Source of the DNA: an uncultured Pseudomonadales bacterium
GTDB lineage: Bacteria > Patescibacteriota > Microgenomatia > UBA1400 > Chazhemtobacteraceae
Assembly (NCBI GenBank): GCA_964618725.1
Contig: CAZUBK010000003.1
Location: forward strand, 81,018-145,017
Direction: 5' to 3'
DNA length: 64,000 nt
Part shown: positions 43,063-62,816 of the stretch, piece by piece
Layout of the letters: every line of letters starts with the position of its first letter
Numbering within the stretch: position 1 is the first letter of the stretch
Notes under the pieces: model-generated
What the model was told of the DNA's origin: nothing
Databases searched by the model: none
What the model saw: the letters and a program-made list of their open reading frames with translations, nothing else
Made by a program: the position numbers and the translations under genes

Positions 43063-43675
43063 ATCAAAATTCCTCTTCGGTATTACTGCCGCCACCTTGG
43101 CAATTGTCGCCATTGGACTATTTGCCTTTTCTAATAAGGGCGCCACTCTTTCCTCTATCCCCACCCTCTCCCGTCAAGAATTAGTTCTCGGCGACTCCAC
43201 CTCTCGTGGCAATAAAGAGGCCGAACACTTCCTTGTCGAGTTCTCTGACTTCCAATGCCCCGCTTGTAAGGCCTTTAAGCCCGTTGTTGATCAATTGATC
43301 TCTCAATATGTTGACAAGCTCTCCTTCACCTATCGTCATTTCCCCCTCGATCAACACCCAGCCGCTCTTCCCGCCGCTATAGCCGCTGAGGCCGCCGCCA
43401 AACAAGGCAAGTTCTGGGAGATGTATGATCTGCTTTTTGAAAACCAAGAAACTCTTTCAGAGGAAACCGTCATCAAGCTAGCTGAGAACCTTCCACTTAA
43501 CATGGATCAATACAGAACCGACTCCGCTGCTGCCAAAGAAGAAGTCCTTCAAGACCGCTCTTACGGCCTCCAGATTGGCATCAACTCCACCCCCACCTTC
43601 TATCTTGACGGCAAGAAACTCATCCTCAACAACCCAGCTGACCTAAAAATTGCAGTCGATAAACTCTTTCAATAA
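43046..43675 (+). CDS. DsbA-like thioredoxin-fold disulfide oxidoreductase.
   Basis: The motif FSDFQCPACKAF (CPAC) is present. An N-terminal anchor is present. It overlaps the VKOR gene by 17 bp. Confidence 0.8.
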   Translation: MNLTSESKFLFGITAATLAIVAIGLFAFSNKGATLSSIPTLSRQELVLGDSTSRGNKEAEHFLVEFSDFQCPACKAFKPVVDQLISQYVDKLSFTYRHFPLDQHPAALPAAIAAEAAAKQGKFWEMYDLLFENQETLSEETVIKLAENLPLNMDQYRTDSAAAKEEVLQDRSYGLQIGINSTPTFYLDGKKLILNNPADLKIAVDKLFQ

Positions 43676-44752
43676 CTTACCCCCATCAACTTTTCGTCCA
43701 CTTTTCTCATCAGACTTCTAATTTCCTTCTTCACGTTGAAACTGCTGGCATGCTTCAAAACTCCAAGATATGAATCCATCGAAGCTAATAAAGATTCTTT
43801 CTCCATCATTCCAAGCTCATATCCTTCTACTTTATTTTTCAATTTTCGTAGCATCCTTATTTTGGTTTTAATCCTGACAATCTTGTGATGCGGAAATATC
43901 ACATACCCCAAAAAATCGATTCCCTGCGTATATTTCCTAATTGTTACCTTCCCAGGATGCAGATTAAGCCTTAATTTTTCTCGCAAGAAAACACCTACTT
44001 GCTCTTTCCACTCAATCAACTCTTCTTCTGAAGAAGACAACATAATAAAGTCATCAGTGTAGCGATAATAATATCGAACCCTAAGTTTGTGCTTAACAAA
44101 TTGATCCAACTCATTCATGTAAATATTGGCAAATAATTGTGAAGTCAGATTGCCAATTGGAATTCCCTGCCGAAACTTTTTACTCTCTCTCTCTCTCTCT
44201 CTCTCTTGCCAATCCATGACTGTTAACCACCTGCTCCAACAATCTCAAAACTTTTTCATCATTTATTTTCCTTTCCAAAATCGCCATCAAGATGTCTTGA
44301 TCCACACTTTGGAAGAACTTTTTGATATCACACTTAAGGGCAAAACAGACTCTGGTGTTGTTCGTACTCACTTTTCCTAATCCTGTACTTAAGGAAGAAA
44401 TCCCTTTATGAACTCCTTTCCCCATCCGACATGAAAAAGAGTTTGCCATAAAAGTGGAGTCAAATATTGGACTTAAGGTGCAAAATAAAGCGTGGTGTAG
44501 AACTCTGTCTCGTACCGTTGCCTTGTGAATTAACCTCTGTTTAGGATCCTTAATGTAAAATGGCACATATTTACCATGCGCATATCTACCTGCAAGTAAG
44601 TCCCTATGCAAAGCAAAAAGGTTCTCCTCAAGCCTGAATTCAAAACGCCTTACATCTTTTTTTCTCGTTTTCCCAATCTTAAATTGCTCCCACGCAGCCA
44701 GGAGACTCGGCAGAGAAGTCACTTTCTCGAATAAGTTCGTATATACTTTCAT
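43669..44752 (-). CDS. Diversity-generating-retroelement reverse transcriptase (Brt-like). It is interrupted by a frameshift inside a (CT)12 tract. Fragment 1 is 44180..44752 and fragment 2 is 43669..44217.
   Basis: The N-terminus MKVYTNLFEKVTSLPSLLAAWEQFKIGKTRKK...KQRLIHKATVRDRVLHHAL matches the start of DGR RTs. The downstream fragment carries GIPIGNLTSQLFANIYMNELD and the YxDD box RYTDDFIM. The 60 aa upstream of MKVY in the listed ORF overlap avd and are probably not coding. Confidence 0.85.
44183..44206. repeat. (CT)12 dinucleotide microsatellite inside the RT coding region (read as ...RERERE...).
   Basis: The tract ctctctctctctctctctctctct is visible directly. The two RT fragments end and begin within the same codon context. 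Inserting one CT unit, or deleting two, would fuse the frames. Confidence 0.8.
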
Positions 44753-44755
44753 CCT

Positions 44756-45106
44756 ATGAATGAGTTTGATCTTCCTATTTTCAAGAAAGTCTACGACCTC
44801 TACAAAGTTTTTCATAGCTATCGAAAAACCATACCCAAACAAGATCGTCATACCCTTTGGCAAAGAGCAGATACTATCATTCTCGACATGCTTGAAACAA
44901 TAATGACTGCTGTCAACCTCCCTAAAAACCACAAGCTTCCATTTTTGGAAAAAACCAACGCCAAACTAAGCATCTTGAAAATCTTGTTTAGACTCTCCTA
45001 CGAAACCAAGGTAATAGATGACCGAAAGTATCTCACCTTGCAAGAACACCTTAATGAAATAGGCAAAATGCTCGGTGGCTGGATTAAAGCCAGCCGAGCA
45101 ATCTAA
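44756..45106 (+). CDS. avd: DGR accessory variability determinant (Avd), a four-helix-bundle protein of the 23S rRNA-IVS family.
   Basis: The 116-aa protein has a C-terminus LNEIGKMLGGWIKASRAI that matches the Avd/IVS consensus (...VGRILGSWIARVNRK in BPP-1 bAvd). The N-terminus reads LPIFKKVYDLYKVF. It is on the opposite strand to the RT, with its start 3 bp from the RT start. Confidence 0.75.
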   Translation: MNEFDLPIFKKVYDLYKVFHSYRKTIPKQDRHTLWQRADTIILDMLETIMTAVNLPKNHKLPFLEKTNAKLSILKILFRLSYETKVIDDRKYLTLQEHLNEIGKMLGGWIKASRAI

Positions 45107-45113
45107 ACCTAAG

Positions 45114-45231
45114 AAGGAGACTTCCGGCGGGCAACGCCAAGGTCGGAGAGGCGGTTGGAATCCCAGTTGTTGTTGACGTTGACCTGACCCTCGTTGACGC
45201 CTACATTGCAGCGGTTGCCATCGGAGTCAAC
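45114..45231 (-). repeat. DGR template repeat (TR). The sense strand is the minus strand.
   Basis: It is ~118 bp and near-identical to 45546-45662. At all 13 mismatches the TR has T on the plus strand, which is A on the minus strand. It is rich in in-frame AAC codons on the minus strand (GTT on plus) and lies outside any ORF. Confidence 0.85.
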
Positions 45232-45324
45232 CTAATTTTTGCCTACTTCCATCCTGTATCACCGGAGGTCGATAAACTCTTCCTCTTGAATTTAATTTCG
45301 AAGCAAGTCCAAAAGACTACCTTC

Positions 45325-45365
45325 TGAGGGAGTAGACAAGCAGTTCCCTCCTTTCTTTTTCACTC
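45325..45365 (+). terminator. Possible hairpin plus T-tract, a plus-strand terminator candidate downstream of avd/TR.
   Basis: The sequence gagggag-tagacaagcagtt-ccctcc is followed by tttctttttcac. The stem is short (6 bp) and the loop is long. Confidence 0.3.
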
Positions 45366-45490
45366 TCTATTATGATCCGTAAATCACAATACTCTGGTCC
45401 TATTAAAGACAGTGGTTCTGCGAAACCAAAGCCGTACTCTGATTCACATCTGCAGAACAAATTCATAATACCAAATCAAAAAAGAAAGTC

Positions 45491-45512
45491 CCGCTTACAA
45501 TTGTAAGCGGGA
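45491..45512 (-). terminator. Perfect 22-bp palindrome hairpin about 35 bp downstream of the VR and target-gene stop. It is a candidate for the DGR target-recognition stem-loop, a minus-strand terminator, or both.
   Basis: cccgcttacaattgtaagcggg is its own reverse complement. On the minus strand it is followed by ACTTTCTTTTTTG. Confidence 0.55.
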
Positions 45513-45530
45513 CAAAAAAGAAACAAAAAA

Positions 45531-46367
45531 TCAAGAGGTCAAGCCAAGGAACTGCCGGCGGGCAACGCCAAGGCCGGAGAGGCGGCAGGAACCCCAGCTG
45601 AAGCTGACGTAGACCTGACCCTCGATGACGCCTACAACGCAGCGGTTGCCACCGGAGTCAACGTCACGGCAACGAAGATAGTTGCTGAACAACTCGCCGT
45701 GCCCTAAGGCCAAATAGCCCGCAGCCGCGTAGGCCAGCTCAACAACTAGCGAGACTTGGAATCCAGCCTCATCGACAGCCTTCTCTTGGTCAAGCCAAAT
45801 CATGTTGGTTGAGTCAGGGAGAGCACCAATGAGATAGTAGCCCGGTTCTGAGTAGTTAACCTCCGAAAAAAGCTCTCGTTCTTCCCGACGAAGATACCAA
45901 TTGCTTGGATACAGATAGCGTGGCGCTGCTTTTTCCCGAAGCTGAACCTGATTCAGTCTTGGTATCGCTGCCAAACATAAACCATCATCCCTAGCTTCTT
46001 CAAGACTACCCTCTCCGCACGGAACCAATCCGTACCGAGCAATCTCAATTTTAGAAAGGCGGATTCCCAGCTTGCTGGCCACCTCAATCCCAATTGCTTT
46101 CTTCCCCATGATCTTGGCAGCGCGTGCCCAGGTCACAGAAGAAGTAGAAATCCCCTTCCAGTGCGAGATCACATCACGCCTTTTGTTCGGATCATCAATC
46201 ATTCTCTGGAGATCATCCAACGTGATTCCCATCTCCTCAGCTCGCCGAAACCATTCGCTCAGCGTGCCAACTATCTGACTTGGAGATTTACCTTGGTTCG
46301 CGATATTCATCGCACACCTCTTCCTTTTTTGAGATATTTGTATCCCGAATGCGGGACTCAGTTGCAT
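45531..46367 (-). CDS. DGR target (variable) protein, 278 aa, with a C-terminal VR-encoded hypervariable patch. The fold is probably CLec/FGE-like.
   Basis: The VR falls in the last ~40 codons (...NRCVVGVIEGQVYVSFSWGSCRLSGLGVARRQF). TR AAC codons are in frame with VR codons TGC, AGC, TTC, AGC, TAC and ATC. I see no obvious signal peptide. Confidence 0.8.
   Translation of the reverse strand: MQLSPAFGIQISQKRKRCAMNIANQGKSPSQIVGTLSEWFRRAEEMGITLDDLQRMIDDPNKRRDVISHWKGISTSSVTWARAAKIMGKKAIGIEVASKLGIRLSKIEIARYGLVPCGEGSLEEARDDGLCLAAIPRLNQVQLREKAAPRYLYPSNWYLRREERELFSEVNYSEPGYYLIGALPDSTNMIWLDQEKAVDEAGFQVSLVVELAYAAAGYLALGHGELFSNYLRCRDVDSGGNRCVVGVIEGQVYVSFSWGSCRLSGLGVARRQFLGLTS
45546..45662 (-). repeat. 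DGR variable repeat (VR) within the 3' end of the target gene.
   Basis: It pairs with the TR at 45114-45231. There are 13 substitutions, all at TR adenines (7 A-to-G, 6 A-to-T in minus sense). The 3' end in minus sense is GC-rich (CCTTGGCGTTGCCCGCCGG), which resembles an IMH. It ends 15 bp before the TGA stop. Confidence 0.85.
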
Positions 46368-46446
46368 TAATGTGCCTGCCTAGTATACCAAAGGAACAAA
46401 CCAAAGTCAACTATAGGATCAACATCAGCCTCATATTTTCCCCTTT

Positions 46447-57518: not shown

Positions 57519-58136
57519 ATGCCCAATATCGATCCTCCATTGGTTGATCTTAAGGTCAATAATCCCGTCACCTACCTTAAAAAATGGTGGGCTAAAATCA
57601 TCGGCAATGAAGGTATCGACTTCCGTCTTCACTTTCATCCTCTCACCGCCATCGCTATGGCACTCGCCATCGCCAGTGTCGGCTTTGGCGTTGGCCGCTT
57701 CGTCTTCCCCTTCTCTGTCCCATTCTTTAAGTATGTCGAAGATCCTGTAAGGGTCGAAGATCCTGTAAGGGTCGAAGATCCTGTAAGGGTCGAAGATCCT
57801 GTACCAGTCTCCTCTACTGACATTCTCAAAGACACCGCCTTCGTCGGCACCCTTCACTACTCCGACACAACAAAAAAGTACTACCTCGTCACCACCTCTT
57901 CCGAAGCCATCACTCTACAAATCCCCAATAATATTGATCTTGAACCCCTCATCAGTAAACGCATCCTCGCCGCCGGACAATATAATAAAACGAAACGACT
58001 ACTAGAAGTCGACGACGCCAAAGATATGGAAGTCCTTCCCAAGAAACCTTCTCCTGTTCCCACCGCTGCCCCCACACCAACCCCCACTACCACTCCCGTT
58101 CCTACCGAGACAATCCCCTCTGGGTCTTCTCTCTAA
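57519..58136 (+). CDS. Hypothetical membrane-anchored protein with tandem DPVRVE peptide repeats and a Pro/Thr-rich C-terminus.
   Basis: A TM helix is present. The repeat EDPVRVEDPVRVEDPVRVEDPV is present. A PTPTPTTTPVPT tail is present. Confidence 0.5.
   Translation: MPNIDPPLVDLKVNNPVTYLKKWWAKIIGNEGIDFRLHFHPLTAIAMALAIASVGFGVGRFVFPFSVPFFKYVEDPVRVEDPVRVEDPVRVEDPVPVSSTDILKDTAFVGTLHYSDTTKKYYLVTTSSEAITLQIPNNIDLEPLISKRILAAGQYNKTKRLLEVDDAKDMEVLPKKPSPVPTAAPTPTPTTTPVPTETIPSGSSL
57735..57803 (+). repeat. Perfect 18-bp tandem repeat, about 3.8 copies.
   Basis: gtcgaagatcctgtaagg occurs three times, followed by a partial copy. Confidence 0.85.
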
Positions 58137-61883: not shown

Positions 61884-62816
61884 TTGACAACTCTTTATTC
61901 AAACGCCGATACTACTAATATGTCCAAAGCTCATCCCAAGAATCTCATCTTCGTCCCTCTTATTGCCGCCTTCAGCATCTTTAATATGCCCAGTATCACT
62001 CTGCAACTGCCACGTATCGAATTCAAAATGCCCGATACTACTTCAAGAATGCCTAGATTTGAGATTACCATGCCTGACACAACCCCGAGAATGCCAGATA
62101 CCACCCCCCGAATGCCTGATACAACTCCCGTTATGCCCGACACAACTCCGAGAATGCCCGGACTACTCAACTATTTTTACAATTTCTATACCGGCATACG
62201 CAAATTCCTTGCTCCTCCTACTCCCTCCAATATCCCCATGCCCCTTGGTCAATGGCAGCAAGACGCCCCCACCCCAACCCCGACTCCCATCTACAAAACT
62301 CCCGCCGGCACTCTTCAAATTGGCACCTATAAGTCTCCCGCTCCCTCAGTCACCCTCACACCCAACCAACCAGTTCTTTCTTCTTTCTCTATCAATGCTC
62401 CCTCCGGTTGGTATCGTAGTAATGGTTCCGGCACTCTCCTTGTTCGTTTCGATTCACCCAAAGTCGATATTCAAAAAATCGAAGACGGCAGTCTAACCAC
62501 CAATGCTTTCATTATCGTCCGCGCCACTGACGCTTACTCAAGCCTCGATGATTTTGTCACTCAATACAAGTCATCTAACTCTGCTGCTACTCTGCTTAGT
62601 TCTTCCAATACCACCGTTAACGGCCAGACCGCCTCTTCCCTCGAATTCACCTATACCACTACTATCGAGACAAAGAAGCTTCTTACTCACGAAATGGACC
62701 TTCTTCTCTTCAAAAATGGCTATAGTTTCCTCATAAAAGGGACCTCCGCCGACTCCGCCTGGAATGAAAACAGCAGTGACCTTCGCTCTGCTCTTTATTC
62801 TTTCAAATTTAACTAA
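61884..62816 (+). CDS. Hypothetical secreted or membrane protein with tandem MPDTTPR heptapeptide repeats.
   Basis: The repeat run MPDTTSRMPRFEITMPDTTPRMPDTTPRMPDTTPVMPDTTPRMPG is present. An N-terminal hydrophobic segment is present. Confidence 0.5.
   Translation: MTTLYSNADTTNMSKAHPKNLIFVPLIAAFSIFNMPSITLQLPRIEFKMPDTTSRMPRFEITMPDTTPRMPDTTPRMPDTTPVMPDTTPRMPGLLNYFYNFYTGIRKFLAPPTPSNIPMPLGQWQQDAPTPTPTPIYKTPAGTLQIGTYKSPAPSVTLTPNQPVLSSFSINAPSGWYRSNGSGTLLVRFDSPKVDIQKIEDGSLTTNAFIIVRATDAYSSLDDFVTQYKSSNSAATLLSSSNTTVNGQTASSLEFTYTTTIETKKLLTHEMDLLLFKNGYSFLIKGTSADSAWNENSSDLRSALYSFKFN
62028..62162 (+). repeat. 21-bp tandem repeat, about 6.4 imperfect copies, each beginning with ATGCC.
   Basis: The units start at 62028, 62049, 62070, 62091, 62112 and 62133. 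Confidence 0.75.

What the first reader, a model, noticed from the sequence alone, without database searches (positions are those of the whole stretch)
44700..45240. Atypical DGR architecture: avd is antisense to RT, TR and target
The adenine-bearing (sense) strand of the TR is the minus strand. The RT and the target gene are also on the minus strand. The Avd homolog, however, is on the plus strand. Its ATG at 44756 is 3 bp from the RT ATG at 44752, and its stop is 8 bp before the TR.

In canonical cassettes avd, TR and RT are co-directional. Here the TR-RNA would have to be transcribed through avd in antisense, and both divergent promoters would have to sit inside coding sequence.

Either this is an unusual regulatory layout, with antisense coupling between Avd expression and TR-RNA/RT expression, or the Avd-like gene is a 23S-IVS-family bystander.
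Basis: inference. Interest (0 to 1): 0.55.

Follow-up and report, generated by a model that had tools for sequence, protein, structure and literature searches.

The report
Ordinary CPR-type DGR with reversed avd
The reversed accessory gene (avd) is real, but it is the normal, already published layout of diversity-generating retroelements in Candidate Phyla Radiation bacteria; the more unusual things in this cassette are a slippery (AG)12 run that breaks the reverse transcriptase gene and a conserved structured RNA upstream of the template repeat.

Summary
The TR sense strand is the minus strand: 14 of 14 TR/VR differences sit at TR adenines.

The layout is not atypical for this lineage. It is architecture B3, "TR-(avd)-RT", of Wu et al. 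2018, which they found in 90% of CPR DGRs. In my survey RT and avd were divergent in 77 of 79 related genome loci (median start-to-start gap 4 nt) and in all 70 repeat-bearing loci where avd could be scored. The closest relative (L082) has the same 3-nt gap. This rules out an inversion or assembly artefact. The gene is a true Avd (NF033474, 89.7 bits, cutoff 80), not a 23S-IVS bystander.

The TR RNA need not cross avd. It has its own promoter-like site about 230-285 nt upstream. A covariation-supported structured leader follows, and most relatives have a hairpin between TR and avd.

Two side findings may be new:
- The RT is frameshifted by an (AG)12 run. This run recurs at the same site in many CPR RTs with variable length, which suggests phase variation.
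- The leader RNA has no Rfam match.

The parts
45531..46367 (-). DGR target gene (278 aa, no Pfam or NCBIfam match) carrying the VR at its 3' end
   Evidence: ORF; no family hits; a 278-aa counterpart is present in the closest relative L082.
46382..46410 (-). Sigma-70-like promoter candidate for the target gene (TTGACT-17-TATACT with TG)
   Evidence: This is a consensus match only.
45551..45662 (-). Variable repeat (VR)
   Evidence: 112 nt, 88% identical to TR; 14 of 14 differences lie opposite TR adenines, all at codon positions 1 or 2.
45488..45513 (-). GC-rich 11-bp hairpin plus T-run just after the target stop. It could be a terminator, the DGR hairpin found downstream of the VR in other elements, or both.
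   Evidence: L082 keeps a hairpin here with different stem bases, followed by the same T-run.
45463..45471 (-). Extended -10-like element TGGTATTAT, the candidate promoter of the TR RNA
   Evidence: Conserved as TGATATTAT in L082. It lies 231 nt upstream of the TR. In relatives, stringent promoter-like sites cluster 233-285 nt upstream of the TR on this strand, in roughly two thirds of 46 loci. Function is inferred.
45232..45458 (-). Conserved structured 5' leader of the TR RNA (8 helices)
   Evidence: Alignment A5 of 44 loci. RNAalifold predicts 55 pairs, 48 with compensatory changes. 91.9% of cells are paired, against 68% in shuffles and 37-50% in slid controls; 0 of 500 shuffles reach the observed values. 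The window's own minimum-energy fold reproduces the helices. A profile hit covers window 45487-45218 (-), E = 3e-36. No Rfam hit.
45120..45231 (-). Template repeat (TR); the sense strand is the minus strand
45070..45099 (-). Hairpin GCUCGGCUGG-CUUUAAU-CCAGCC(A)CCGAGC followed by AUUUUG, inside the last 12 avd codons when read on the TR-sense strand. It may stand in for the hairpin that relatives have between TR and avd.
   Evidence: Sequence; fold. It is not conserved in L082, so this is weak.
44756..45106 (+). avd (116 aa), the DGR accessory variability determinant
   Evidence: NF033474, 89.7 bits (cutoff 80); PF22296, 65.4 bits (cutoff 40); 114 homologues, those with source names from Patescibacteria/CPR MAGs.
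44750..44758 (.). Head-to-head start codons CAT-cct-ATG (RT on the minus strand, avd on the plus strand)
   Evidence: The same arrangement, with a median gap of 4 nt, is seen in 78 loci.
44180..44752 (-). N-terminal half of the RT (190 codons, then TAA)
   Evidence: RVT_1 profile positions 7-108; TIGR04416-like.
44183..44206 (-). (AG)12 dinucleotide run that shifts the RT reading frame. 10 or 13 units would be in frame.
   Evidence: the only period-2 array in the 64 kb window. The closest relative has GGGAGAGAGT here and an intact 353-aa RT. The same 12 units are in Logan contig L081, which ends 6 nt past the run.
43669..44184 (-). C-terminal half of the RT (SKKFRQGIPIGNLTSQ... to the stop), one base forward of the N-terminal half's frame
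   Evidence: RVT_1 profile positions 110-205; frames from tblastn.

Best explanation
This is an ordinary member of the CPR/Patescibacteria type of diversity-generating retroelement, architecture B3: target-VR ... TR-(avd)-RT.

Shown:
- The components are a target gene with a C-terminal VR, a TR whose adenines account for every TR/VR difference, a genuine Avd, and a DGR-type RT.
- avd lies on the opposite strand, between TR and RT.
- This order, these orientations and the near-zero avd/RT start-to-start gap are conserved across the lineage.

Inferred working model, with several transcription units:
1. The target gene, ending at a hairpin terminator.
2. A non-coding TR RNA of roughly 350-420 nt. 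It starts at its own promoter just after that terminator. It has a conserved, structured leader of about 230 nt, then the TR. In most relatives a GC hairpin follows just before the avd stop codon, so the TR RNA and the avd mRNA are convergent.
3. avd, transcribed from a promoter that overlaps the first RT codons. It may be leaderless, because there is no room for a Shine-Dalgarno sequence.
4. RT, transcribed from a promoter inside avd or by read-through.

Avd and RT would then bind the TR RNA and make adenine-mutagenised cDNA, as in the Bordetella phage element. The difference is that here the large structured RNA domain is 5' of the TR rather than 3'.

In this particular genome the RT is out of frame at an (AG)12 run, so the assembled allele is most likely OFF.
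For: Literature:
- B3 = TR-(avd)-RT with avd on the reverse strand. [quoted passage not shown] Components on different strands need at least two transcription units (PMC5758913).

Components in the window:
-.

Synteny:
- 77 of 79 GTDB loci have a divergent RT.
- The median start-to-start gap is 4 nt, and 14 loci read CATATG.
- In 66 of 80 loci a TR follows the avd stop, with mismatches mostly at T on the avd strand, that is, at A on the other strand.
- In an RT-selected set, 70 of 70 scorable loci have a divergent avd.
- The closest relatives L082/L083 (84% Avd identity) have the same layout and the same 3-nt gap.

TR RNA unit:
- Promoter-like sites cluster 233-285 nt upstream of the TR on the sense strand. 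36 of 46 loci have a site on the sense strand, against 17 of 46 on the antisense strand.
- The window's TGGTATTAT is conserved in L082.
- Leader covariation. Near-invariant G-U pairs make the fold strand-specific.
- The leader profile hits 76 of 80 loci, with 76 of 77 hits on the strand opposite avd.
- A hairpin lies within 25 nt of the avd stop in 51 of 67 loci. It has a T-rich tail on the TR-sense strand in 30 and on both strands in 20.
Against: - No transcript data exist, so every promoter, terminator and RNA end is inferred.
- No positionally conserved sigma-70-like promoter was found for avd or RT.
- The window and L082 lack the hairpin between TR and avd. The substitute hairpin inside avd is not conserved in L082. 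In this genome the TR RNA and the avd mRNA may therefore overlap.
- The hairpin in relatives could be an Avd-binding stem-loop rather than a terminator (bioRxiv 10.1101/2023.10.23.563531). 19 of 51 hairpins have no T-rich tail on either strand.
- Both locus samples are biased. One was chosen by similarity to this Avd, the other by the repeat in RT.
- The RT frameshift means this copy may be inactive.
Confidence: 0.85

Rival explanations
1. Antisense regulatory coupling. Transcription of the TR RNA and RT runs through avd in antisense, and avd transcription runs into the TR, so Avd and TR-RNA/RT expression repress or tune each other.
For: - The 3-nt gap forces the avd and RT promoters to overlap the partner's 5' codons.
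- The window and L082 lack the hairpin between TR and avd. avd ends only 13 nt from the TR, so convergent transcripts could overlap here.
- An A/T-rich TTTATAAATTTTCAT block is conserved upstream of the avd ATG, with moderately biased RT codons 2-5.
Against: - The TR RNA has its own upstream promoter-like site and leader.
- 51 of 67 relatives put a hairpin between TR and avd, and 30 of these are terminator-like on the TR strand.
- Synonymous sites of avd vary freely along the whole gene, so there is no sign of an overlapping sequence constraint.
- No conserved promoter positions were found inside avd or RT.
- The codon bias at the RT 5' end is also what ordinary 5'-end A/T enrichment would give.
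Confidence: 0.2
2. Local inversion or assembly artefact: avd was originally co-directional and was flipped in this assembly or strain.
For: None found. The only assembly oddity is that an independent Logan contig (L081) breaks at the (AG)12 run inside RT, not at avd.
Against: - The same orientation and near-zero gap are seen in 77 of 79 genome loci from many studies and assemblers.
- The same holds in 70 of 70 scorable RT-selected loci and in the closest relatives L082-L084.
- The layout is published as architecture B3.
Confidence: 0.01
3. The plus-strand ORF is a 23S-rRNA-IVS-family (four-helix-bundle) bystander and not part of the DGR.
For: Weak sub-threshold matches to PF05635 (17.6 bits, cutoff 33.8) and TIGR02436 (17 bits, cutoff 24). 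These reflect the known kinship of the two families.
Against: - It scores above the cutoff on the Avd equivalog NF033474 (89.7 bits, cutoff 80) and on PF22296 bAvd (65.4 bits, cutoff 40).
- It sits in a fixed position between RT and TR in essentially every related cassette.
- In the two loci where RT sits elsewhere (L063, L070), avd still lies next to the TR leader on the opposite strand.
Confidence: 0.02
4. This particular cassette is a dead remnant: the RT frameshift at (AG)12 is an inactivating mutation and the DGR no longer works.
For: - The RT is split by an in-frame TAA after (AG)12.
- The closest relative has an intact 353-aa RT without the expansion.
- No in-frame allele of this species was found among 5.8 billion clustered proteins; the best hit is 74% identical.
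Against: - Both RT halves are otherwise intact.
- The TR/VR pair has 0 non-adenine differences out of 14.
- Across relatives, repeat-bearing cassettes look no more decayed than repeat-free ones. Adenine-site differences are 17.0 against 17.3, and the median of non-adenine differences is 1 in both.
- Both halves are intact in about 70 of 75 repeat-bearing loci.
- One unit gained would restore the frame.
Confidence: 0.3

Closest known systems
CPR/DPANN DGRs of architecture B3, TR-(avd)-RT (Wu et al. 2018, NAR 46:11, PMC5758913)
   Same: Same order and strands: target-VR, TR, reversed avd, RT. Same Avd and RT families. Relatives are Patescibacteria MAGs. The mismatch pattern is adenine-specific.
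   Different: Nothing differs in layout. Locally, the TR abuts avd (13 nt) without the hairpin seen between them in 51 of 67 relatives. The RT carries an out-of-frame (AG)12 run; Wu et al. discarded elements with premature stops.
Bordetella phage BPP-1 DGR (mtd-VR, avd, TR, brt; architecture B1)
   Same: Same four components. Mutagenesis is restricted to adenines at codon positions 1 and 2. A GC-rich hairpin follows the VR. Avd plus RT are presumed to act on a TR-containing RNA.
   Different: In BPP-1 avd is co-directional and upstream of the TR. There the structured RNA needed for priming (Sp, about 140 nt; the RT-10 motif) lies 3' of the TR. Here avd is reversed and lies 3' of the TR, and the large conserved structured domain is 5' of the TR.
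Simple-sequence-repeat contingency (phase-variable) genes, for example the CT-dinucleotide tracts in Helicobacter pylori outer-membrane protein genes (from my own knowledge)
   Same: A perfect dinucleotide tract inside an ORF. The unit number differs between near-identical loci and moves the reading frame. The gene is otherwise intact.
   Different: The tract sits mid-gene in the enzyme of a mutagenesis system, not near the 5' end of a surface-protein gene. Switching has not been observed directly.
23S rRNA intervening-sequence protein / four-helix-bundle family (PF05635, TIGR02436)
   Same: A distant sequence relative of Avd that shares the C-terminal EIGKML-like motif.
   Different: The window protein fails both curated cutoffs and passes the Avd-specific ones.

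Membership tests
Diversity-generating retroelement (DGR) | TR/VR repeat pair whose differences are confined to adenines of one copy (the TR) | tested here: met
   14 of 14 differences are at TR adenines on the minus strand.
Diversity-generating retroelement (DGR) | VR at the 3' end of a protein-coding target, with variable sites at codon positions 1 and 2 | tested here: met
   The VR (45551-45662) ends 20 nt before the target stop. All 14 sites are at codon positions 1 or 2.
Diversity-generating retroelement (DGR) | Adjacent RT with the DGR-typical motif-4 signature (I/L)GxxxSQ | tested here: met
   GIPIGNLTSQ is present in the C-terminal half. RVT_1 matches both halves. More than 6,500 homologues score E <= 1e-30; those with source names come from CPR MAGs. 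Caveat: the gene is frameshifted.
Diversity-generating retroelement (DGR) | Demonstrated mutagenic retrohoming (cDNA synthesis, VR turnover) | not testable with these tools
   This needs read-level VR heterogeneity or an experiment.
Architecture B3 of Wu et al. 2018 (CPR type) | Core order TR-(avd)-RT with avd on the reverse strand and no other accessory gene | tested here: met
   TR 45231-45120 (-), avd 44756-45106 (+), RT 44752-43669 (-). Definition from PMC5758913.
Architecture B3 of Wu et al. 2018 (CPR type) | Occurs in CPR/Patescibacteria-type genomes | tested here: met
   The nearest Avd and RT relatives that carry a source name, and the related loci, come almost entirely from Patescibacteria/CPR MAGs. 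The window's own taxonomy was not determined independently.
Avd (NF033474 / PF22296 bAvd) | Score above the curated whole-protein cutoff of the family model | tested here: met
   NF033474: 89.7 bits against a cutoff of 80. PF22296: 65.4 bits against a cutoff of 40.
Avd (NF033474 / PF22296 bAvd) | Pentameric four-helix-bundle barrel that binds RT and the DGR RNA | not tested
   No structure prediction was run; sequence membership was judged sufficient.
23S rRNA IVS protein (PF05635 / TIGR02436) | Score above the curated cutoff | tested here: not met
   PF05635: 17.6 bits against 33.8. TIGR02436: 17 bits against 24.
SSR-mediated phase-variable (contingency) gene | Uninterrupted short-unit repeat inside the ORF whose unit number sets the reading frame | tested here: met
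   (AG)12 at 44183-44206; 10 or 13 units would be in frame.
SSR-mediated phase-variable (contingency) gene | Unit-number polymorphism between otherwise near-identical loci, giving both in-frame and out-of-frame alleles | tested here: met
   Shown in relatives, not in this species. L086 and L118 have 18 nt (out of frame) against L107 with 20 nt (in frame). L148 has 15 nt against L160 with 17. L123 has 23 nt against L125 with 29. Frames across 79 lineages are 17 in frame and 62 out of frame. In-frame (RE)n occurs in 17 of 120 full-length homologues.
SSR-mediated phase-variable (contingency) gene | Gene otherwise under purifying selection (not a decaying pseudogene) | tested here: met
   The N-terminal half is intact in 70 of 75 loci, and the C-terminal halves run 135-172 codons to their stop in nearly all. 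TR/VR signatures are as clean as in repeat-free cassettes.
SSR-mediated phase-variable (contingency) gene | Reversible ON/OFF switching observed within a population | not testable with these tools
   This needs read-level or clonal data.
Any Rfam 15 RNA family (for the TR leader) | Covariance-model match | tested here: not met
   No hit in window 45218-45470 at E <= 1. No hit in the leader regions of six relatives at E <= 0.1.

The most novel reading that the evidence does not exclude
In about a fifth of CPR DGRs, this one included, the mutator itself is phase-variable. A hypermutable (GA)n tract sits in a surface loop of the RT, just upstream of the GIPIGNLTSQ motif. Replication slippage at the tract turns the RT ON and OFF, so only a subpopulation diversifies its target protein at any time.

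A second, independent novelty: CPR DGRs use a previously undescribed structured RNA domain of about 230 nt, placed 5' of the TR. In the Bordetella phage the structured domain (Sp) is 3' of the TR.
Probability: 0.4. Interest if true: 0.75.

Novelty: already known. Interest (0 to 1): 0.25.

Why it matters
The flagged feature does not change anything. It is the standard CPR DGR layout, already classified in 2018, and the finding should be filed as ordinary.

What could matter lies next to it.

1. No CPR DGR appears to have been studied experimentally; none turned up in the literature I could search. The model here gives concrete coordinates to test. It proposes that the TR is the 3' part of a discrete non-coding RNA with its own promoter and a covariation-supported 8-helix leader, convergent with avd. 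It also suggests that the RNA elements needed for priming are arranged differently from the Bordetella paradigm.

2. A (GA)n tract of variable length recurs at one site of the RT in at least 83 distinct lineages. Their RT halves are otherwise intact. If this is a switch, it would be a second layer of stochastic control placed on top of a targeted hypermutation system. It also means that surveys which discard "frameshifted" RTs systematically miss these elements.

Tried and rejected
1. Overlapping RNA constraint on avd. I looked for suppressed synonymous variation at the avd 3' or 5' end. None was found; third positions vary freely, including in the invariant EIGKMLGGW block.

2. Hairpin inside avd (45070-45099) as a conserved element. 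It is not conserved in the closest relative L082.

3. Conserved sigma-70-like promoters for avd and RT inside each other's coding regions. No positional clustering was found. There is only an A/T-rich TTTATAAATTTTCAT block and modest codon bias, which ordinary 5'-end effects can explain.

4. Programmed ribosomal frameshifting on (GA)n.
   - The first 15 cases looked skewed (14 out of frame, mostly one base forward). With 79 lineages the frames are 17, 38 and 24, which is too mixed for an obligatory shift.
   - A downstream GC/UUCG hairpin occurs in only about 20 of 88 loci and in all three frame classes.

5. A split RT with independent initiation of the C-terminal half. An upstream in-frame ATG is present in 14 of 38 loci of one out-of-frame class and in 0 of 24 of the other.

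6. Rfam. Only sub-threshold terminator-like hits (isrL, anti-hemB) at the hairpin after the VR.

7. Paul et al. 2017 (Nat Microbiol) could not be retrieved.

8. A search for an in-frame allele of this species' RT found none; the best hit is 74% identical.

9. Remote VRs. The window contains no second VR.
Full report
**1. What is there**

The window holds a complete DGR cassette on the minus strand, with one gene reversed.
- The target ORF is 46367..45531 (-), 278 aa, with no Pfam or NCBIfam hit. It ends in a 112-nt VR (45551-45662).
- The VR is 88% identical to a TR at 45120-45231.
- All 14 TR/VR differences are at adenines of the minus-strand TR, which has 25 A. All 14 fall at codon positions 1 or 2 of the target. 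No second VR exists in the window.
- The plus-strand ORF 44756..45106 (116 aa) passes the curated cutoffs of the Avd equivalog NF033474 (89.7 bits, cutoff 80) and of Pfam bAvd PF22296 (65.4, cutoff 40). It fails the 23S-IVS models PF05635 (17.6, cutoff 33.8) and TIGR02436 (17, cutoff 24).
- The RT starts at 44752 on the minus strand, and the junction reads CAT-cct-ATG.

The one addition is that the RT is not a single ORF. An (AG)12 run at 44183-44206 brings a TAA into frame and separates an N-terminal half (44752..44180) from a C-terminal half (to 43669), one base forward of the N-terminal half's frame.

**2. Is the layout unusual?**

No, not for this lineage.
- Wu et al. 2018 (PMC5758913) define architecture B3 as "TR-(avd)-RT", the parentheses marking the reverse strand. 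[quoted passage not shown] They also note that components on different strands require at least two transcription units.
- I checked this independently. A scan of one genome per GTDB species with an Avd alignment gave 573 confirmed loci, of which the best 80 were kept. Nearly all are Patescibacteria/CPR MAGs.
- RT lies divergent from avd in 77 of the 79 loci that have an RT.
- The distance between the two start codons has a median of 4 nt. It is 0 nt (CATATG) in 14 loci, and in a few the start codons overlap.
- In 66 of the 80 loci a TR of 100 nt or more follows the avd stop. Its mismatches to the VR are mostly at T on the avd strand, that is, at A on the other strand.
- A second sample was selected through the RT rather than through Avd (see section 5). 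Of the 75 repeat-bearing loci that could be scored, 70 have a divergent avd, none has a co-directional avd, and 5 are contigs too short to contain one.
- The closest relatives (L082/L083, 84% Avd identity) have RT, avd and a 278-aa target in the same order with the same 3-nt gap. L084 (61%) has a 19-nt gap.

Inversion, misassembly and "bystander" are therefore excluded. The avd protein is under ordinary purifying selection: residues are invariant while synonymous sites vary freely.

**3. Does the TR RNA have to cross avd?**

The evidence says it does not have to.

*Promoter.*
- Stringent promoter-like sites were scored in the spacer between VR and TR. On the TR-sense strand 36 of 46 loci have at least one; on the antisense strand 17 of 46 do.
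- The sense-strand sites cluster 233-285 nt upstream of the TR boundary (31 of 39 sites).
- The window has an extended -10-like TGGTATTAT at 45471-45463, 231 nt upstream of the TR. It lies directly after the target's terminator hairpin (45513-45488). L082 conserves it as TGATATTAT, and the L082 hairpin has different stem bases.

*Structured leader.*
- The roughly 250 nt between this site and the TR are strikingly conserved in 44 divergent loci.
- RNAalifold predicts 55 pairs in 8 helices, 48 of them with compensatory double changes.
- 91.9% of cells are paired, against 68.1% in column shuffles and 37-50% when partners are slid by 1-3 columns. There are 643 doubly changed cells against 187. The covariation score is 0.763 against 0.294. 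None of 500 shuffles reaches any observed measure.
- Several near-invariant G-U pairs make the fold specific to the TR-sense strand.
- The window's own minimum-energy fold reproduces the helices. By alignment, 40 of 55 pairs form; helices 1 and 2 are displaced by the aligner.
- A profile of this leader hits 76 of 80 genome loci. 76 of the 77 hits are on the strand opposite avd. It also hits the window at 45487-45218 (-).
- No Rfam 15 family matches it in the window or in six relatives. Weinberg et al. 2017 described RT-associated motifs, including RT-10 in the Bordetella Sp region, but none of the Rfam models hit.

*Hairpin between TR and avd.*
- 51 of 67 relatives have a GC-rich hairpin within 25 nt of the avd stop.
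- It carries a T-rich tail on the TR-sense strand in 30, on both strands in 20, and on the avd strand only in 2.
- 14 of the stems share GGYATCC. The hairpin may therefore also be the "Avd-binding stem-loop just downstream of TR" that Handa et al. predict for many DGRs.

The typical B3 cassette is thus best read as convergent avd and TR-RNA units plus a divergent avd/RT pair. In the two loci where RT sits elsewhere (L063, L070), avd still lies next to the TR leader on the opposite strand.

**4.

- The head-to-head geometry does force the avd and RT promoters into each other's first codons. With gaps of 0-5 nt there is no room for a Shine-Dalgarno sequence, so avd may be leaderless.
- A conserved TTTATAAATTTTCAT block (the antisense of the RT codons MKIYK) lies at the right distance for a -10 element. 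RT codons 2-5 are moderately biased towards A/T. This is also expected from generic 5'-end effects.
- A stringent scan found no positional clustering of promoters for either gene.
- The window and L082 lack the hairpin between TR and avd; the TR ends 13 nt from the avd stop. A hairpin plus AUUUUG inside the last avd codons (45070-45099) could substitute, but it is not conserved in L082.

So some antisense overlap between the avd mRNA and the TR RNA is possible in this genome. I rate real regulatory coupling at about 0.2.

**5. Side finding: a hypermutable tract in the RT**

*In the window.*
- The (AG)12 run is the only period-2 array in the 64 kb window.
- The closest relative has GGGAGAGAGT at that spot and an intact 353-aa RT.
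- An independent Logan contig carries the same 12 units and ends 6 nt beyond them.

*In relatives.*
- The run is not private. In the genome sample, 15 of 69 RTs carry a perfect (GA)n run of 13-71 nt at the same place, 8-33 nt upstream of the PIGNLTSQ codons.
- These RTs are scattered over the RT similarity tree. The nearest neighbour lacks the run in 13 of 15 cases.
All but one of the 80 loci returned match this RT family.
- Together the repeat-bearing loci form 83 clusters at 95% nucleotide identity.

*Evidence bearing on function.*
- Both RT halves are intact ORFs in nearly all loci (N-terminal half in 70 of 75; C-terminal halves of 135-172 codons).
- The frame relation between the two halves is mixed: 17 in frame, 38 with the C-terminal half one base forward and 24 with it two bases forward (deduplicated; chi-square p = 0.013 against uniform).
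- Near-identical loci differ in unit number. L086 and L118 have 18 nt (out of frame) and L107 has 20 nt (in frame). L148 has 15 nt and L160 has 17. L123 has 23 nt and L125 has 29.
- Several contigs begin or end at the run.
- Among 120 full-length homologues, 17 carry an in-frame (RE)3-5 at residue ~183, so intact RT ORFs with the tract in frame exist.
- Repeat-bearing cassettes have TR/VR signatures as clean as repeat-free ones.

*Interpretation.*
- The pattern fits a simple-sequence contingency switch better than decay.
- It fits better than obligatory ribosomal frameshifting, because the frames are too mixed and the downstream UUCG hairpin is found in only about 20 of 88 loci, in all frame classes.
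- It fits better than a split enzyme, because there is no conserved restart codon.
- I found no paper linking DGR RTs to repeats or phase variation. Wu et al. discarded elements with premature stops. The literature search is limited to the held library.

**6. Verdict**

The flagged feature is real, conserved and functional-looking, but already known. It is the normal CPR (B3) DGR architecture, and I score it low.

The novelty in the neighbourhood lies in three inferences that only experiments or read-level data can settle:
- the 5' structured leader of the TR RNA;
- the convergent arrangement of avd and the TR RNA, with a shared hairpin in most relatives;
- the recurrent (GA)n tract that currently puts this genome's RT out of frame.

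Noticed in passing
window 44183-44206 (minus-strand RT); also L001-L080 and L085-L164: An (AG)12 run splits the RT. A perfect (GA)n run of 13-71 nt lies at the same site, just upstream of GIPIGNLTSQ, in 15 of 69 related genome RTs and in at least 120 metagenome stretches (83 clusters at 95% identity). The RT halves are otherwise intact, the frames are mixed (17, 38, 24), and the unit number differs between near-identical loci. In-frame (RE)n is seen in 17 of 120 full-length homologues. This suggests a phase-variable RT.
   Followed up: yes
window 45232-45458 (minus strand); alignment A5: A conserved structured RNA of about 230 nt lies immediately 5' of the TR. It has 8 helices and 55 pairs, 48 with compensatory changes; 91.9% of cells are paired against 68% in shuffles. 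It is present in 76 of 80 related loci on the TR-sense strand. No Rfam 15 family matches.
   Followed up: yes
window 45463-45471 (minus strand); spacers of 46 related loci: Promoter-like sites cluster 233-285 nt upstream of the TR on the sense strand. The window has an extended -10-like TGGTATTAT, conserved in L082.
   Followed up: partly
L001-L080, 0-25 nt after the avd stop; absent in the window (45107-45119) and in L082: A GC-rich hairpin lies between the TR 3' end and the avd stop in 51 of 67 relatives. Its tail is T-rich on both strands in 20 and on the TR-sense strand only in 10. 14 stems share GGYATCC. It could be a terminator, an Avd-binding stem-loop, or both. The window lacks it and has a non-conserved hairpin inside avd at 45070-45099.
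   Followed up: partly
L001, L006, L030, L079, L094, L098, L126, L133, L141, L159, L163 and others, 0-9 nt after the (GA)n run: Short GC-rich hairpins follow the RT repeat in about 20 of 88 lineages, mostly with a C(UUCG)G-type loop. The stems and the encoded amino acids differ. They occur in all frame classes. Function unknown.
   Followed up: partly
avd/RT junction: window 44735-44758 and the equivalent in 78 loci: A conserved A/T-rich block TTTATAAATTTTCAT lies upstream of the avd ATG (it is the antisense of RT codons 1-5). There is no room for a Shine-Dalgarno sequence. RT codons 2-5 are biased to AAA, ATT and TAT. avd may be leaderless.
   Followed up: partly
L063 and L070 (Peribacteria MAGs): These are the only two loci where RT is not divergent from avd. 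RT lies about 1.45 kb downstream on the avd strand, while the leader (and by implication the TR) still sits next to avd on the opposite strand.
   Followed up: partly
L081 positions 1-30 (Logan contig of SRR12113420); also L108, L138, L139, L141, L154: Independent assemblies break at or within a few bases of the (GA)n run. This fits length heterogeneity within the sample or trouble in the assembly graph at the repeat.
   Followed up: no
L022 3710-3837 (+) and L045 7128-7257 (+): LOOT RNA (RF03000) matches well above the gathering score (80 and 78 bits against 46.4), within a few kb of the DGR cassette in two relatives.
   Followed up: no
L011, RT gene at the repeat site: The (GA)6 run is directly preceded by (CT)6C, giving an inverted repeat CTCTCTCTCTCTC/GAGAGAGAGAGAG.
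   Followed up: no
window 57735-57803 and 62070-62158: Two longer tandem arrays lie elsewhere in the window: an 18-nt unit x 3.8 copies (100% identical) and a 21-nt unit x 4.2 copies (72%).
   Followed up: no
window 45260-45345 (minus strand) against L082: An AGGAGG-like box followed by a TTG opens a 15-codon ORF in the window's leader and a 36-codon ORF in L082. The length is not conserved, so it is probably not a gene; the sequence conservation is explained by the RNA helices.
   Followed up: partly
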